Source: Myxococcota bacterium (GTDB lineage Bacteria > Myxococcota_A > Bradymonadia > UBA7976 > UBA1532). From it: a stretch of DNA of 21,136 nucleotides. Location: contig JAYZEG010000039.1 of NCBI GenBank assembly GCA_036337435.1, forward strand, positions 1 through 21,136. The letters are read 5' to 3'. The translations under genes were made by a program, and so were the position numbers. Below the pieces are notes generated by a model, which saw nothing but the letters and a program-made list of their open reading frames with translations, searched no databases and had not been told where the DNA came from. Below, piece after piece: positions 5,455 through 9,755 of the stretch (its first letter is position 1; the number at the start of each line of letters is the position of its first letter).

Positions 5455-6780
5455 ATGAAATCAAAAAAACACGTTTGCCTGCAAACCCGTCGAGCCGAGC
5501 TTCTCAATGCATTAGATGGTCGTACTGCCGTCATCCCAGCGGGTTTACCAACCAGCCGTAACTTTCCTGCGAACCAGCACCCATTCCGTGCCTCGAGCCA
5601 TTTTTTGCATTGTGTCGGTCAAAACTTACCCGGTGCCGTTCTTATTTTGGATGAGCGGGGAGCCTGTTTGTATGTCGAACGACCAGACGCAGATGATGCG
5701 CTCTGGCATGGTCCGCGCCCGACGGCCCAAGAGTGGCGCGCGACGCTCGACGTCAAAACGGCTTATCTTGATGAATTGGTGTATCAGTCCGATGCGATGG
5801 TGCTGCCCGCCATGGACCCAGGTTCGAGCAAAAGGATTTCGGAAAAGCTGAACCGGCCTGTATCCGGTGGGTCTATCGATCCGTTTGACCGACCATTGGC
5901 CGAAGCGATGGTGGCGTCTCGACTTTGCCACGACCCATGGGCAATCGACCAATTGATCCGTGCGGCTCAGGTGACCGCCGAGGCCCATGAGCTCGCGCGT
6001 AATCGATTGCGATCCGGGGTGTCATGCCAATCTATTTGGGGGGTCATGAACGGCTATTTTTACGACCATGGAATGACCAATTCATACAACCCGATCATCA
6101 CGCCTGCAGGGGAAGTTCTTCATCAAAATGACCTGAGTGCAAAAATGCAGGCGGGCGACATGGTTTTGCTCGACGTTGGGGCTGAAACTGGCTCGGGTTA
6201 CGCTGCCGATGTCACGCGAACCTGGCCCGTGGAACAGCCAATGTCACCAACACAGTCGGCCATCCACGATGTCGTGTCAACCGCCCAAGACGCAGCCATA
6301 GCACTCATCAAACCAGGCGTTGAATACAGAGAAGTCCATCGCATGGCCTGTCTGACTCTCGTGAGTGGTTTGTGTGACTTAAATCTTTTGTATGGCGACC
6401 CGATTGATCTCGTCGAAGAAAATGTGCACGCCCTGTTTTTCCCGCACGGTGTTGGGCATTTGCTGGGATTGGATGTCCACGACATGGAAGATCTGGGTGA
6501 CCTCGCTGGATATGCACCAGGCCGACGACGCAGTGAGCGTTTTGGCTGGTCGTTTCTTCGATTGGACCGGCCCTTACAAGAAGGCATGCTTGTCACGGTT
6601 GAGCCAGGGTTTTACCAAGTCGATGACCTGCAGCGTCGTTATTATAACCACCCCCATTTGACTCAGTTCGTCAACTGGTCTGAATTGAGCGCGTATAGCG
6701 ATGTCCGCGGCCTGCGAGTCGAAGACGACATACTCGTTACGGCAGACGGCTCTCGTTGCCTATCGCAGACAACCGGTTGA
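5455..6780 (+). CDS. pepP: Xaa-Pro aminopeptidase (M24B, aminopeptidase P family)
   Basis: N-domain FRASSHFL; metal ligands in LLDVGAE, YAADVTRTWP, HGVGHLLGLDVHD, TVEPG and GLRVEDD. Confidence 0.88.
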   Translation: MKSKKHVCLQTRRAELLNALDGRTAVIPAGLPTSRNFPANQHPFRASSHFLHCVGQNLPGAVLILDERGACLYVERPDADDALWHGPRPTAQEWRATLDVKTAYLDELVYQSDAMVLPAMDPGSSKRISEKLNRPVSGGSIDPFDRPLAEAMVASRLCHDPWAIDQLIRAAQVTAEAHELARNRLRSGVSCQSIWGVMNGYFYDHGMTNSYNPIITPAGEVLHQNDLSAKMQAGDMVLLDVGAETGSGYAADVTRTWPVEQPMSPTQSAIHDVVSTAQDAAIALIKPGVEYREVHRMACLTLVSGLCDLNLLYGDPIDLVEENVHALFFPHGVGHLLGLDVHDMEDLGDLAGYAPGRRRSERFGWSFLRLDRPLQEGMLVTVEPGFYQVDDLQRRYYNHPHLTQFVNWSELSAYSDVRGLRVEDDILVTADGSRCLSQTTG

Positions 6781-6785
6781 GCCTT

Positions 6786-6917
6786 AAAAAGAAGGAAAGA
6801 TAAGCCGCCCCGAGCCGGTCGGGTCGCCCACCGGGCTGCCGAAAGGGAGGAGGGGGATCGACAAACACGAAGGCTCCAACTCAGAGCGGCTTAAAGCTGT
6901 ACGATTTACGTATGGTA
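6786..6917 (-). ncRNA. Candidate small structured RNA (rod hairpin 6801-6893 with C-rich apical loop and U-rich tail)
   Basis: 18-bp outer stem UAAGCCGCUCUGAGUUGG/CCGGCUCGGGGCGGCUUA with 4 G-U pairs that form only on the minus strand. Inner stem UGUCGA/UCGGCA closes loop UCCCCCUCCUCCCUU. Followed by UCUUUCCUUCUUUUU. Both ends are estimates. Confidence 0.55.
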
Positions 6918-6923
6918 TAGAGA

Positions 6924-6948
6924 GTCGAGATCCACCCCATTTGGTTAC
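6924..6948 (-). promoter_or_regulatory. Putative ECF-sigma-type promoter for the candidate sRNA
   Basis: Minus strand GTAAC (6948-6944)-N16-CGAC (6927-6924) matches the AAC-N16/17-CG(A/T)C pattern of ECF promoters such as B. subtilis sigma-X. Confidence 0.35.
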
Positions 6949-7185
6949 GCAGGTCGGATTAAAAAAAAGAATCAGCCTCAGTTTTTGTCTCGACCTCGGC
7001 CCGATTAACTTTCTCAAATCCCAAAGATTGAGAAGAATTCGGGTTCAGATAGACCTACGAAGCATCCCATTGGACTTCGCAGTTTGGCGTTCAAACCTGA
7101 TTGCTACCGTGTAAGAGAGTCCCTTGAATGTCGACCTGATCATGTCGGCATCCACCGTGCTTGAAATTGGTCCATGTGGACCGGG

Positions 7186-8109
7186 TCACCCGAATGAAAG
7201 GGCCAGGTGTTCGGCGAATAAATCAGCGGTTTCAACCACGACAAGACCCTCTGTTTTGAGTTGAATTGCATTGGGGTGACTGTCCGTTGCTATCACCATC
7301 TCGAAGAGACCTGAATCGAGAATCCGTCTGTAAGCACCCGGCGTGAAAACGCCATGGGTACAGACAGCAATCTGCTTCGTTGCCCCTGCTGCCTGATACG
7401 TTTCCGCTGCGCTGATGAGAGAGCCACCAGACCGAATCATATCATCGTAGATGACGACTGTCCGTCCGACCACATCGGCATTCATTGCCGTCACTCGCGT
7501 TTGGTTGTTTTGAGTGCGTCGCTTAATGATGAAGGCTGCATCGACACCGAGGTCGTTTGCCAGAGATTCAATCCATTTTGCGCGGCCCGCATCGGTGCTC
7601 CCAAGCACGAAATTTTGACCGCCCATTTTTGCGATGACCGGGGTGAGAAGGGCTTTTGCGTACACGTGAATGGCCGTCAGCCCGTCTTCGAAGTAGTGTG
7701 GGATCCCCTCGCTGTGAAGGTCGAGTAAAAAAACAGAGTTTCCATAACTGGCTGGTGGGATTGCCGACAGAAGCCGTGCTCTGGCCTTAGCTGTCACGAC
7801 CTCACCAGAATGAACGGCGCGCTCCATTGTCGAATACCCAAAATAGGGGAGGACCATTTGGAGCCGGCGCGCACCGTACTTGGTAATCGCACACGCTAAA
7901 TCGTAGAGAGTCAATGTCGATGGATCGTCTATCGTCCCGCCGACCAGAATGACCTGTCGTCCTTCGACGGCCTGCATGAGCCTTTGATAGCGTTCTCCAT
8001 CGGCAAATTGCCGACGTTCGACATCACCGCGTTCTGCATCGAGGCGAGCTAGAAGTGCCTCTTGCAGATGTTCATAGCCCGGGATGGAAAATATGATTGG
8101 TCTTTTCAT
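7186..8109 (-). CDS. prs: Ribose-phosphate pyrophosphokinase (PRPP synthetase), divergent type
   Basis: FADGE, PYFGY, DLHS, DAG, KRR, PRPP-binding loop VVIYDDMIRSGGSL, CTHGVF and TDSHP. Confidence 0.9.
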   Translation of the reverse strand: MKRPIIFSIPGYEHLQEALLARLDAERGDVERRQFADGERYQRLMQAVEGRQVILVGGTIDDPSTLTLYDLACAITKYGARRLQMVLPYFGYSTMERAVHSGEVVTAKARARLLSAIPPASYGNSVFLLDLHSEGIPHYFEDGLTAIHVYAKALLTPVIAKMGGQNFVLGSTDAGRAKWIESLANDLGVDAAFIIKRRTQNNQTRVTAMNADVVGRTVVIYDDMIRSGGSLISAAETYQAAGATKQIAVCTHGVFTPGAYRRILDSGLFEMVIATDSHPNAIQLKTEGLVVVETADLFAEHLALSFG

Positions 8110-8127: not shown

Positions 8128-9615
8128 CTACACTTCGTAAATGCAAAAGCCATCTTCCGAGCAATATCCAAACAGTCCGCCCTCTTGGCATGGGTCGTCT
8201 GTGTAGCCCTCGCAGTCATCCGACCACGTTCCACCGGGGAGGCACCATTGCCAACCACATTGGCCACAGTCTCGACGCGCCCCGTTGCTATTGCCGCATC
8301 CGTTCCATTCACAATCCATATTGCAAACTTGGACACCACACTCACCGCAGGGTTGCTCGTCGCCTGGTGCGCAGACCCCGTCGTTTCTGCACGGTTCCCA
8401 TTGACAATCATCACCGCAGAATCGAAGTCCGCAATTACCGCATGCTTGAACATCACCGGGTTGGCAGGCACCGCGTTCTTCACAGGCAAGCCATATGCCC
8501 CAGTCTCCGTTCCGGCAATCCCTGCGCTCCACACCACATTGACCGCATTCCCTCGTTTCCGTTTCACCGTCTCGGCACGCGTTCGCACACTCACCATCAC
8601 CCCGGCACTGTTGTCCACCAGGACATCTTTCGACCGGACCCCATGCAGCACACCCTTGGGCATCAGAACAGACCTGGTAACCGTCATTAACGCACCGGCG
8701 GCTGCCCGGATTACATTCTGGCTCACAGCCTTGGACACAGCCCAGTTGTTGACCATCACAGACTTGTCCAGGACCGCACGGCTGAATGGCACCCCATGTC
8801 GGACATCCGTTGAATTGGTTGGGCACGCAGATCTGGATACCGCCTTGGAAACATCTCTCGCGAACCAGTTGGCATTCGGGGGGAGATGGACATGGGTTCT
8901 CGCATTGTCCGTTTGCCCGATTGCAGCGGAGTCCGTCGGGACAATTTTGCGGCGAATTGTAGTCCAAACAAGAGTTCGCTTGGCGGCTGCATTGCTGGAA
9001 AGATGAGTCATCTAAACAGACGACGGAGTTTTCAGAGCAGCTATCGCGGCATGCTTGGCCCGCGCCCTGACATTGCCCCCCAGAACAGACCTGCCCTGCT
9101 GGACAGACTTCAGTATCGGACCAACGCGTACATTGTCCGTCCAGGACACAGCGAGAAAATGCTGCATCTCCTGTACAGCGGACAGTGCCTTCATCACATT
9201 GATCGCTACATCGCCCGGGCTCGCATCGCACCCGACCCGGTTGGCACACTTCGCCGACTGGACACGGCTGTGTTTCGCCCCAGACTCCACATTCACCTTG
9301 GCCCCTTTCACAGGTTTGCAGACCAGAGGGACGACACTGTGTTTCGCCCGGTGTACACGCCGATTCACAGGACCGCGTACAGATTCCGTCCTGGCAAACG
9401 CCGCTGATACAGTTCCGGGGCACCGTCCACTGTCCCCGGTCATTGCACAGTTGTGTCTTGTTTTGCCCGACGACGCATTTACGGCTGCCTGGCGAACATT
9501 CTTGGTCAGCACCACCACCCGGCCCCTGTCCGAGGCCTCCGTCGAGGCCCGATGGCAAGTCTCCGCTGACGCAGGCGACAAAACAGATGGATATCAAGGC
9601 TAATACGTACCGCAT
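8128..9615 (-). CDS. Cysteine-rich repeat lipoprotein (~495 aa, ~72 Cys)
   Basis: Likely start ATG 9615 (MRYVLALISICFVAC, lipobox FVAC), then a Gly-rich linker, six ~45-55 aa Cys repeats and four CGxCG-type repeats. The stop lies 18 nt before the prs ATG. Confidence 0.8.
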   Translation of the reverse strand: MRYVLALISICFVACVSGDLPSGLDGGLGQGPGGGADQECSPGSRKCVVGQNKTQLCNDRGQWTVPRNCISGVCQDGICTRSCESACTPGETQCRPSGLQTCERGQGECGVWGETQPCPVGEVCQPGRVRCEPGRCSDQCDEGTVRCTGDAAFSRCVLDGQCTRWSDTEVCPAGQVCSGGQCQGAGQACRDSCSENSVVCLDDSSFQQCSRQANSCLDYNSPQNCPDGLRCNRANGQCENPCPSPPECQLVRERCFQGGIQICVPNQFNGCPTWGAIQPCGPGQVCDGQQLGCVQGCEPECNPGSRRCVNDGYQVCSDAQGCAAWGPVERCPGGQQCRGDGECANACRDGETETRECGQCGVERRDCRNGDWGIWLACEERGACQPGDVQACGNCGLRFCGDDCQWEPCRNDGVCAPGDEQPCGECGVQVCNMDCEWNGCGNSNGARRDCGQCGWQWCLPGGTWSDDCEGYTDDPCQEGGLFGYCSEDGFCIYEV

Positions 9616-9755
9616 GTCATCACGATACTGCATGCCGCCGGTCTTTGTCTCACTTTTCGCACCACAGCCTTCGAATACCTCATACGGGGGTTGAAAACCG
9701 GCTCTAATTGGTACCAAATGTGAATAGTAAACGCATGAGTTTGGGGACATAAAAT

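What the first reader, a model, noticed from the sequence alone, without database searches (positions are those of the whole stretch)
6786..6917. Candidate undescribed small RNA: G-U-rich rod presenting an anti-Shine-Dalgarno loop
Seen: between the convergent pepP and prs genes, the minus strand folds 6801-6893 into a 93-nt rod. The 18-bp outer stem has four 'mismatches' that are all G-U on the minus strand (A-C on the plus). An interrupted middle stem (GCCU-UCG/CGG-U-GGGC) leads to a 6-7 bp apical stem closing the loop UCCCCCUCCUCCCUU, and a U-rich tail follows. Strand-specific G-U pairing points to selection on RNA rather than on a DNA palindrome. Established: unpaired C-rich loops are SD-pairing seeds in several trans-acting sRNAs, such as the UCCC motifs of staphylococcal RNAIII and RsaE. 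Inference: an independently transcribed ~125-130 nt regulator of translation initiation. It is far larger than an ordinary terminator, and I do not recognise it as SRP, 6S, tmRNA or tRNA.
Basis: partly seen in the sequence, partly recalled or inferred. Interest (0 to 1): 0.75.

Follow-up and report, generated by a model that had tools for sequence, protein, structure and literature searches.

The report
Anti-ribosome-site small RNA, marine myxobacteria
An uncultured marine myxobacterium and its closest relatives carry a conserved gene for a roughly 125-base folded RNA whose exposed loop mirrors ribosome-binding sites, so it probably switches off translation of some messages, a known trick in a new RNA family whose expression and targets are still untested.

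Summary
Window 6801-6893 (minus strand) folds into a 93-nt three-helix rod with four G-U pairs in the 18-bp outer stem, a 15-nt loop UCCCCCUCCUCCCUU and a U-rich tail.

Comparative data show it is a real structured RNA:
- Nine homologues were found: four genomes of one genus of uncultured marine Myxococcota (record titles: Myxococcales/Bradymonadia), two second copies, and three metagenome contigs.
- 94.6% of pair cells are paired, and 21 of 32 pairs carry compensatory changes.
- There are 32 G-U cells against 2 A-C cells, which fixes the strand.

The loop and a 7-nt bulge (GACCCGA) are nearly invariant. The conserved island (about 6790-6970) is 93% identical between two species, against about 80% and 72% for the flanking genes. 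It includes an upstream GTAACC hexamer.

No Rfam family matches. The loop carries CCUCCUCCC, the anti-Shine-Dalgarno motif of the alphaproteobacterial 'cuckoo'/alpha-r14 sRNAs. This RNA fails that family's architecture, model and taxon tests, so it is an analogue and not a member.

The most likely function is an Hfq-independent, terminator-embedded anti-SD riboregulator. No transcript, promoter or target has been shown. This scan has noted the same design on other DNA (39 notes), but not this sequence. Interest is moderate.

The parts
6801..6893 (-). 93-nt three-helix rod: 18-bp outer stem, 4-bp middle helix, interrupted upper helix with a 5-bp apical stem
   Evidence: Fold. Consensus structure. 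Covariation (helix 1: 14 of 18 pairs with changes on both sides). G-U asymmetry.
6843..6857 (-). 15-nt apical loop UCCCCCUCCUCCCUU, containing the anti-SD motif CCUCCUCCC
   Evidence: Identical in all 7 first-locus sequences, 6 full-length plus the cut L022 (alignment). The exact 9-mer is present in 8 of 9 homologues; L029 has CCUCCUCC-U (alignment). Mean P(unpaired) of the core is 0.83-1.0 in 8 of 8.
6819..6825 (-). Conserved 7-nt bulge GACCCGA on the 3' side, opposite a single A (6875)
   Evidence: GACCCGA is present in all 7 first-locus sequences. The paralogues have GACCCUA and AACCCUG. ACCC is invariant in 9 of 9.
6786..6800 (-). U-rich tail after the rod, the presumed intrinsic termination tract
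   Evidence: 6-9 T in the 12 nt after the rod in 7 of 8 full-length homologues (L029 has 4). The 12 nt before the rod hold only 1-4 A, so no comparable tail exists on the other strand.
6894..6917 (-). Presumed 5' leader with a small 4-bp hairpin (about 6900-6912). The true 5' end is unknown.
   Evidence: Hairpin seen in the MFE. It is kept in G002 with a changed loop. The leader is not alignable in more distant homologues.
6943..6948 (-). Conserved upstream hexamer GTAACC, a candidate promoter element or regulator site. This role is an inference.
   Evidence: It is the only 6-mer present within 150 nt upstream of the rod in all 5 independent first-locus lineages. 3 of 2000 dinucleotide shuffles give any such 6-mer.
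6790..6970 (-). Conserved island: the likely gene, with promoter region, leader, rod and tail
   Evidence: In the G000 vs G002 identity profile, 149 of 160 positions are identical over 6949-6790. The spacer 7189-6990 scores 13-19 of 40 per bin, prs about 80% and pepP about 72%. No population variant falls in 6777-7019, against 10 in the rest of 6700-7250.
5455..6780 (+). Convergent neighbour: M24 Xaa-Pro peptidase (pepP/pepQ-like). Its stop codon lies 5 nt from the end of the RNA tail.
   Evidence: Pfam Peptidase_M24 8.9e-45 and AMP_N 7.2e-18. The NCBIfam Xaa-Pro peptidase models score below their equivalog cut-offs.
7186..8109 (-). Upstream same-strand neighbour: ribose-phosphate diphosphokinase (prs), 292 nt from the rod
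   Evidence: TIGR01251 scores 187.4 bits against a cut-off of 113. Pfam result.

Best explanation
Window ~6786-6917 on the minus strand (possibly starting further upstream, within the conserved island that reaches ~6970) encodes a small non-coding RNA of a previously uncatalogued family. The family is restricted, in what was searched, to one genus of uncultured marine Myxococcota plus a few marine metagenome relatives.

Shown:
- A three-helix rod maintained by compensatory changes.
- Transcribed-strand polarity, from G-U pairs and a U-tail.
- A nearly invariant 15-nt loop and a 7-nt bulge, both predicted single-stranded.

Inferred:
- The base of the rod plus the U-tract acts as the RNA's own intrinsic terminator.
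- The loop (CCCCCUCCUCCC, two overlapping copies of the 16S anti-SD core CCUCC) pairs with Shine-Dalgarno regions (GGAGG, especially G-extended ones such as GGAGGGGG) of some mRNAs. This would occlude 30S binding and repress translation.
- It works without Hfq, because the seed is pre-presented in a loop, as in NfeR1/CcsR, RsaE and RNAIII.
- The ACCC bulge may be a second C-rich contact.
- Expression probably comes from its own promoter, marked by the conserved GTAACC element.
For: Structure and strand:
- 9 homologues; 94.6% of cells paired; 21 of 32 pairs with compensatory changes; 0 of 500 shuffles as good; slid controls 27-44%.
- 32 G-U cells against 2 A-C cells. The same pairs are 83.0% paired on the opposite strand.
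- The sense rod is more stable than the antisense rod in 6 of 8. A U-rich tail is present in 7 of 8.

Selection on the exposed sequence:
- The loop is identical in all 7 first-locus sequences while the stems vary.
- Loop core P(unpaired) is 0.83-1.0 in 8 of 8.

Not coding:
- Homologues differ by single-base indels. L012 has +1 and +1, L028 has -1, L029 has -1 and -1.

Gene-like unit:
- The island 6790-6970 is 93% identical between G000 and G002. The adjacent spacer is at random level and the flanking genes at about 72-80%.
- No variant falls in 6777-7019 in three DNA runs, against 10 outside it.
- GTAACC lies upstream in 5 of 5 lineages.
- The upstream gene differs among loci: prs in 4, a DJ-1/PfpI-family gene in 1, another in 1, and DUF1501 at the two second copies.

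Targets are plausible:
- GGAG peaks 9-12 nt before ATG across 2615 long ORFs.

Hfq:
- Hfq was not found in 0 of 4 genus genomes, one of them 100% complete.

Precedent:
- CCUCCUCCC loops of NfeR1 repress ntrB and ABC-transporter mRNAs by pairing at the RBS, independently of Hfq (PMC10746234, passages).
- The cuckoo family is described in PMC4615179 (passages).
- M. xanthus sRNAs Pxr and MXnc1 contact mRNAs near the SD (bioRxiv 10.1101/2025.09.11.675593, passages).
Against: - There is no expression evidence of any kind.
- No sigma-70-type promoter is seen in 6600-7400.
- No hairpin terminator was called between prs and the rod, so the RNA could be made only as the prs 3'UTR.
- GTAACC is absent at one second copy (L028) and too close to the rod (15 nt) at the other, L029.
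- A genome-wide search for a matching extended promoter pattern gave only a coincidental second site.
- Target prediction discriminates poorly. 19 loop-complementary sites are followed by an ORF start, against 10 for a reversed control.
- The extended complementarity of three top candidates is not kept in orthologues, except in the near-identical species.
- The single-sequence fold is only z -1.6 to -2.3.
- The 16S 3' end of the genus is not assembled, so the anti-SD was inferred from SD usage and not read directly.
Confidence: 0.5

Rival explanations
1. It is only the elaborated intrinsic terminator or 3'UTR of the upstream same-strand gene (prs here). The RNA has no promoter of its own. Any small RNA would arise by processing of the mRNA tail, as CcsR RNAs arise from the ccaF1 3'UTR.
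For: It lies on the same strand as prs. The scan found no separate terminator and no sigma-70 promoter between prs and the rod. The 297 nt upstream have no significant fold (z -0.5). The rod ends in a U-tract. Cuckoo RNAs with the same loop motif are 3'UTR-derived (PMC8034643; search listing and abstract only).
Against: - The upstream gene is not constant: prs in 4 loci, DJ-1/PfpI in 1, another in 1, DUF1501 in 2.
- The 200-nt spacer after prs is unconserved, while the island starting about 75 nt before the rod is 93% identical.
- Ordinary terminators in this class are 8-11-bp GC stems with 3-6-nt loops.
- Termination does not require an invariant 15-nt loop and bulge.
- This rival concerns biogenesis. 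It is compatible with the same anti-SD function.
Confidence: 0.25
2. It acts in cis on the convergent peptidase gene. Either it is an antisense RNA or convergent-transcription insulator for the pepP 3' end, or the reverse complement is a structured pepP 3'UTR.
For: In 5 of 7 first-locus homologues (G000, G002, G001, G003, L021) the RNA abuts the stop codon of the convergent pepP-like gene within about 0-30 nt. On the plus strand no U-tract follows the hairpin, so pepP transcripts may read into it.
Against: - L020, L022 and both second copies are not next to pepP.
- pepP orthologues in 17 loci of other genera of the family have no related element downstream.
- G-U pairs (32 against 2 A-C) show that selection acts on the minus-strand fold, not on the pepP-sense strand.
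- An invariant loop is not explained by this reading.
Confidence: 0.08
3. It is a protein-binding or decoy RNA. The invariant loop and GACCCGA bulge would be recognition sites for a protein (for example a C-rich-RNA binder or a factor that binds the 16S 3' tail), or for a G-rich RNA that it sponges, and not seeds for mRNA SD sites.
For: Sequence invariance extends beyond CCUCC to the whole 15-nt loop, the closing GUCGA/UCG stem and a separate 7-nt bulge. That is more than SD pairing alone needs. No conserved extended mRNA target was found.
Against: No candidate partner was identified and no co-conserved neighbouring gene exists. Known RNAs with this loop motif act by mRNA pairing.
Confidence: 0.12
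4. It is not a functional RNA. It would be a DNA palindrome or protein site, a mobile repeat, or part of the 77-aa ORF 6784-7017.
For: An ORF of 77 aa (TTG start) spans it on the minus strand. The plus strand also folds, at -46.4 kcal/mol.
Against: It is single-copy in the genome. The G-U/A-C asymmetry is strand-specific. Homologues differ by frame-breaking single-base indels, and the overlapping ORFs differ in frame and extent. Compensatory changes keep the pairing.
Confidence: 0.03

Closest known systems
Cuckoo / alpha-r14 sRNAs of Alphaproteobacteria (Rfam RF02344; NfeR1, CcsR1-4/RSs0680)
   Same: Both have an exposed hairpin loop carrying the identical CCUCCUCCC anti-SD motif. In both, the stems vary by compensatory changes while only the loop is conserved. 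NfeR1 is Hfq-independent and blocks ribosome-binding sites (PMC4615179 and PMC10746234, passages).
   Different: - Cuckoo RNAs have 2-4 adjacent short hairpins, each with the motif. This RNA has one 93-nt three-helix rod that also serves as the terminator, plus a second conserved element (the GACCCGA bulge).
- No covariance-model match at E<=10 here or E<=1 in 7 homologue loci.
- The host is Myxococcota, not Alphaproteobacteria.
- There is no DUF1127 neighbour.
- It is therefore an analogue, probably convergent, and not a member.
C-rich-loop sRNAs of Firmicutes: RsaE/RoxS and S. aureus RNAIII (UCCC motifs)
   Same: Unpaired C-rich loops pair with SD regions, without a need for Hfq. RNAIII is only mentioned in passages of the TRIC-seq preprint.
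   Different: The sequences, architectures and phylum are unrelated. No Rfam hit to these families.
Myxococcus xanthus sRNAs Pxr and MXnc1
   Same: These are myxobacterial, Hfq-less regulation in which sRNAs contact mRNAs near the SD (bioRxiv 10.1101/2025.09.11.675593, passages).
   Different: No sequence or model similarity was detected; Rfam found nothing. The element was not found in the other 109 genomes of the class searched with the model.
Ordinary Rho-independent terminators
   Same: Both have a GC-rich stem base followed by a U-tract on the transcribed strand. The covariance model's weak hits in other genera are exactly such terminators.
   Different: The rod is 93 nt with three helices, a 15-nt invariant loop and an invariant bulge. 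The terminator scan did not call it as a unit.

Membership tests
Cuckoo / alpha-r14 (RF02344) | 2 to 4 adjacent hairpins, each a separate stem-loop module | tested here: not met
   There is one rod only. No second CCUCC-bearing hairpin exists in the 405-nt intergenic region. The same holds in the homologues.
Cuckoo / alpha-r14 (RF02344) | Loop motif CCUCCUCCC in the unpaired hairpin loop | tested here: met
   The exact 9-mer is in the loop of 8 of 9 homologues; L029 has CCUCCUCCU. The loop is predicted unpaired, 0.83-1.0.
Cuckoo / alpha-r14 (RF02344) | Match to the Rfam covariance model | tested here: not met
   0 hits at gathering score in the window. There was no RF02344 hit at E<=10 in 6600-7300 or at E<=1 in 7 homologue loci.
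Cuckoo / alpha-r14 (RF02344) | Occurrence in Alphaproteobacteria (Rhodobacterales/Rhizobiales), often beside a DUF1127 gene | tested here: not met
   The record titles of three homologue-bearing genomes read Myxococcales/Bradymonadia MAGs. The neighbours are prs, M24 peptidase, DJ-1/PfpI, DUF1501 and StiP.
Trans-acting base-pairing sRNA (independent gene) | Own promoter and a discrete transcript | tested here: inconclusive
   No sigma-70-like site was found. A conserved island starts about 75 nt upstream of the rod and GTAACC occurs in 5 of 5 lineages. No RNA run was available.
Trans-acting base-pairing sRNA (independent gene) | Conserved, accessible seed sequence | tested here: met
   The loop is invariant in the first-locus sequences and nearly so in the paralogues. 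It is predicted unpaired.
Trans-acting base-pairing sRNA (independent gene) | Conserved complementary sites in target mRNAs | tested here: inconclusive
   Generic SD complementarity is certain. Extended complementarity gives 19 sites against 10 for the control, and it is not conserved in orthologues of 3 candidates.
Rho-independent terminator | GC-rich stem immediately followed by a U-tract on the transcribed strand | tested here: met
   6-9 T in the 12 nt after the rod in 7 of 8 homologues, and the outer stem is GC-rich.
Rho-independent terminator | Simple short hairpin with no sequence constraint in the loop | tested here: not met
   The rod is 93 nt with an invariant 15-nt loop and 7-nt bulge. 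Contrast the class's plain terminators.
Cis-antisense RNA to pepP | Constant convergent overlap or abutment with the same gene | tested here: inconclusive
   5 of 7 first-locus homologues abut pepP. L020, L022 and 2 of 2 second copies do not.

The most novel reading that the evidence does not exclude
The RNA is a mimic of the 16S rRNA 3' tail, not an ordinary few-target sRNA. Its loop, with closing bases, reads GAUC-CCCCUCCUCC-CUUUC. That resembles the GAUCACCUCCUUUC end of bacterial 16S, which is recalled and could not be read in this genus.

It would be made from a stress-type (ECF-like, GTAACC) promoter. It would act as a global decoy that competes with ribosomes for strong, G-extended SD leaders, or that titrates a factor binding the 16S tail. 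The invariant GACCCGA bulge would be a protein-docking site. The result would be reprogramming of translation genome-wide in Hfq-less marine myxobacteria.
Probability: 0.1. Interest if true: 0.65.

Novelty: new variant of a known kind. Interest (0 to 1): 0.42.

Why it matters
If it is expressed, this would be a new RNA family. It would show that the exact 'cuckoo' anti-Shine-Dalgarno loop, so far reported only from Alphaproteobacteria (78 of 2,689 genomes in PMC4615179), has arisen independently in Myxococcota, on a different scaffold: a single long rod that is also the terminator. That would strengthen the view that loop-presented anti-SD seeds are a general, Hfq-independent solution for translational repression. 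It would also give a first regulatory RNA candidate for an uncultured marine predatory lineage. It is not a new principle, and this scan has already flagged many RNAs of the same design on other DNA.

Tried and rejected
- **RNA evidence.** No RNA holder was listed among 24 runs. The one metatranscriptome of a holder's sample (X21, polyA-selected) laid nothing. This gives no information on expression.
- **Known families.** Rfam at gathering score and at E-value thresholds, and ARAGORN, found nothing.
- **Multi-copy repeat.** Only the self-match was found in G000. The other CCUCCUCC-containing sites in G000 have no rod.
- **Second copy in G000.** The flanking genes of the second locus (DUF1501, StiP) were not found in this 87%-complete assembly by tblastn. 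Whether the copy is absent or unassembled is open.
- **Wider distribution.**
  - The model found the RNA in 4 of 28 family genomes, all of one genus.
  - Nothing beyond plain terminators was found in the other 109 of 113 class genomes.
  - A loop-plus-bulge pattern over 401 phylum genomes hit 149, but at the rate of the reversed control, so it is uninformative. Two look-alikes were rejected by the model.
  - The DNA matches in G018 and G021 were GC-rich chance hits.
  - L016 (Planctomycetota) and L023 are chance 20-mer matches.
  - Six viral-contig matches to the 18-mer belong to a protein-coding region of low-GC phages, with 0 model hits.
- **pepP downstream regions.** 17 loci of other genera hold no related RNA.
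- **Promoter ideas.** There is no sigma-70 match. Sigma-54 spacing, judged by eye, was inconsistent among homologues. The ECF-like pattern GTAACC-N14-16-YGAMTC has only one other genomic match, and that one lies across a stop and start codon.
- **16S 3' end.** It is not assembled in any of the 4 genus genomes.
- **Target prediction and orthologue check.** Inconclusive.
- **Pairing between the upstream GGGGUGG and the loop.** Seen by eye in only 3 of 6 homologues, and dropped.

Full report
**1. The observation**

The sequence and the ORF map place the element in a 405-nt gap. On one side is an M24 Xaa-Pro peptidase gene (5455-6780, +; Pfam Peptidase_M24 8.9e-45, AMP_N 7.2e-18). On the other is ribose-phosphate diphosphokinase (7186-8109, -; TIGR01251 187 bits against a cut-off of 113).

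- An 18-bp outer stem (6893-6876 with 6818-6801) containing four G-U pairs.
- A short middle helix.
- An interrupted upper helix ending in GUCGA/UCGGC.
- A 15-nt loop UCCCCCUCCUCCCUU (6857-6843).
- A tail UCUUUCCUUCUUUUU (6800-6786).

On this one sequence the fold is only modestly better than shuffles. The minus strand gives z -2.3 with 5 of 200 shuffles as good, and the plus strand gives z -1.9 with 8 of 200. For the rod alone z is -1.6. The single sequence therefore would not prove anything.

**2. Homologues**

The element is single-copy in its own 4.38-Mb, 87%-complete assembly.

A DNA search of 41 related genomes found it in all 3 other genomes of the same genus. The matches coincide with the rod even where the flanks are not alignable. 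Two further matches were GC-rich chance hits.

Exact-pattern scans for the 20-nt loop region gave these results:
- The species-genome collection returned the same three genomes. Their record titles read 'Myxococcales bacterium', 'uncultured Myxococcales bacterium' and 'Bradymonadia bacterium' MAGs. One chance hit in a Planctomycetota MAG was also returned.
- The metagenome collection returned five contigs. One is identical to G002's, two are full-length new homologues (L020, L021), one is cut in the loop (L022) and one is a chance hit.

A covariance model was built from six sequences. It found second, diverged copies in G002 (92 bits) and G001 (49 bits) at a different, mutually syntenic locus. 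That locus lies downstream of a DUF1501 gene and convergent with a StiP/PELOTA gene.

The model found the RNA in 4 of 28 genomes of the family, all of one genus, and in none of the other 15 genera. Over 113 genomes of the class, the only additional hits (7 genomes, 23-28 bits) are plain GC-hairpin terminators or unrelated sequence.

pepP orthologues in 17 loci of other genera have nothing similar downstream. A looser pattern scan of 401 genomes of the phylum matched at the rate of its reversed control, so it says nothing. Two look-alikes failed the model. Six viral-contig matches to the 18-mer are a protein-coding region of unrelated phages.

**3. It is a structured RNA read from the minus strand**

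On the model-guided alignment of the nine homologues (such an alignment leans towards the model's structure):
- 94.6% of 259 pair cells are standard pairs.
- 21 of 32 pairs show changes on both sides.
- None of 500 column shuffles reaches any of the five measures.
- Sliding the 3' partners by 1-3 columns drops pairing to 27-44%.
- An independent MAFFT/RNAalifold run on six sequences gave the same 32 pairs, 11 of them with compensatory changes.

The polarity is clear:
- There are 32 G-U cells against 2 A-C cells, so the same pairs are only 83.0% paired on the other strand.
- The sense rod is more stable than the antisense rod in 6 of 8 full-length sequences. The two second copies are about equal.
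- 6-9 of the 12 nt after the rod are T in 7 of 8, whereas the 12 nt before it hold only 1-4 A.

Homologues differ by single-base indels, and the ORFs overlapping the element differ in frame and extent. The 77-aa ORF 6784-7017 is therefore not a gene.

**4. What is conserved**

While the stems drift, the loop with its closing pairs (GUCGAUCCCCCUCCUCCCUUUCG) is identical in all seven first-locus sequences. It is nearly identical in the two second copies. A 7-nt bulge GACCCGA (6825-6819) opposite a single A is equally fixed, and ACCC is invariant in 9 of 9. In partition-function folds the loop core is unpaired with probability 0.83-1.0 in 8 of 8.

Between G000 and G002 the 40-column identity bins are as follows:

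| Region | Identical positions |
|---|---|
| prs | about 80% |
| Spacer 7189-6990 | 13-19 of 40 per bin |
| Island 6949-6790 | 149 of 160 |
| Around the pepP stop | 16 of 40 |
| pepP | about 72% |

The best-conserved unit is therefore an island of about 180 nt. It begins at a T8 run about 75 nt upstream of the rod.

Contigs from three marine DNA runs carry 10 differences in 6700-7250, none within 6777-7019. Those contigs have low depth, so this is a weak support.

Within 150 nt upstream of the rod, GTAACC is the only hexamer shared by all five independent first-locus lineages. 3 of 2000 shuffles give any shared hexamer. Its distance to the rod varies from 40 to about 125 nt. It is absent at one second copy and lies only 15 nt from the rod at the other.

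**5. How it most likely works**

The organism uses canonical Shine-Dalgarno sites. Over 2615 long ORFs, GGAG and GGAGG peak 9-12 nt before the ATG, and G-runs are enriched there too. The loop is two overlapping copies of the anti-SD core in a C-rich context, so it can pair with GGAGG and with extended GGAGGGGG(A) leaders.

Hfq was not found in any of the 4 genus genomes, one of them 100% complete. M. xanthus is reported to lack Hfq (preprint passages).

The best reading is therefore a loop-presented, Hfq-independent anti-SD riboregulator whose rod base plus U-tract is its own terminator. The structure, polarity, conservation, loop accessibility and SD usage are shown. Transcription, the 5' end, the promoter role of GTAACC and RBS occlusion are inferred.

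Target prediction does not sharpen this:
- 74 genomic sites have at least 9 nt of loop complementarity, against 50 for a reversed control.
- 19 of them, against 10, are followed by an ORF start.
- These include an acetyl-CoA-synthetase-like gene, a FliI-type ATPase gene and several large Cys-rich secreted proteins. Those names are my reading of the sequences and were not searched.
- The extended pairing is not kept in orthologues of three candidates, apart from the near-identical G002.

**6. Rivals**

- *Terminator or 3'UTR of prs only.* No sigma-70-like promoter and no separate prs terminator were found. This rival is therefore real for biogenesis. However, the upstream gene varies among loci, the spacer is unconserved while the island is not, and termination does not need an invariant loop.
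- *Cis-antisense to pepP.* 5 of 7 first-locus copies abut pepP, but four other copies do not, and the G-U pattern shows selection on the minus-strand fold.
- *Protein-binding or decoy RNA.* This is not excluded. The invariance is broader than SD pairing requires.
- *DNA palindrome, repeat or ORF.* These are disfavoured.

**7. Comparison with what is known**

The loop contains CCUCCUCCC. This is the defining loop motif of the 'cuckoo' family (RSs0680/CcsR, alpha-r14/NfeR1; Rfam RF02344).

That family has 2-4 adjacent hairpins, each with the motif. Its stems are conserved only in structure. It was found in 78 Alphaproteobacteria among 2,689 genomes screened (PMC4615179, passages). NfeR1 is a 123-nt Hfq-independent RNA whose three redundant aSD loops silence ntrB and ABC-transporter mRNAs at the RBS (PMC10746234, passages).

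The present RNA shares the motif and the principle but fails the other defining features:
- It has a single long rod.
- It gives no model hit.
- Its host phylum is different.
- It has no DUF1127 neighbour.

It is an analogue, probably convergent, and not a member.

Full-text searches found no description of such an RNA in myxobacteria. They covered 'CCUCCUCCC' (7 papers), 'myxobacteria' with 'small RNA' and 'anti-Shine-Dalgarno' (1 paper), and 'Bradymonad' with 'sRNA' (0 papers). Subscription-only papers were not searched.

The scan's own notebook holds 39 notes on anti-SD-loop RNAs in at least 37 other genomes, none on this sequence. It also holds one note on a sigma-54-driven C-rich-loop sRNA elsewhere in this same genome. 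I did not check either.

**8. Verdict**

This is a real, conserved, uncatalogued structured RNA, with confidence of about 0.9 for that part. It is most likely an anti-SD small regulator (about 0.5), with biogenesis and targets open. It is a new family built on a known design and is narrowly distributed. Interest is moderate.

Noticed in passing
L028:1501-1604 (G002:C28) and L029:1501-1603 (G001:C21): Second, diverged copies of the RNA lie at a different conserved locus, between a DUF1501 gene and a convergent StiP cysteine-protease/PELOTA-domain gene. Neither flanking gene was found in the G000 assembly by tblastn.
   Followed up: partly
window 6943-6948 (minus strand) and the equivalent sites in L010, L011, L012, L020, L021: A GTAACC hexamer is conserved upstream of the rod at variable distance (40 to about 125 nt), often just after a T-run. 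Whether it is a promoter -35-like element or a regulator site is unknown.
   Followed up: partly
G000:C95:86608-86650: This site shares GCGTAACC, about 14 nt of spacer, then CGACTCTCTAT with the region upstream of the RNA. It lies across the stop codon of one ORF and the start of the next, so I judged it coincidental.
   Followed up: partly
window 8128-9750 (minus strand): A 540-aa ORF upstream of prs has no Pfam or NCBIfam match. It is conserved next to prs in G002 and G001; C-terminal fragments are seen in L010 and L011.
   Followed up: no
L111-L116 (IMG/VR contigs): The 18-mer of the loop region occurs in six low-GC viral contigs, inside what looks like a conserved protein-coding stretch (a glycine-rich motif on the opposite strand). 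It is unrelated to the RNA.
   Followed up: partly
If real, the organism has at least two C-rich-loop RNAs. I did not locate or check it.
   Followed up: no
G000 genome-wide, -14 to -8 before ATG of long ORFs: GGGGG is enriched in the Shine-Dalgarno window alongside GGAGG, which suggests that G-extended SD sequences are common in this organism.
   Followed up: partly
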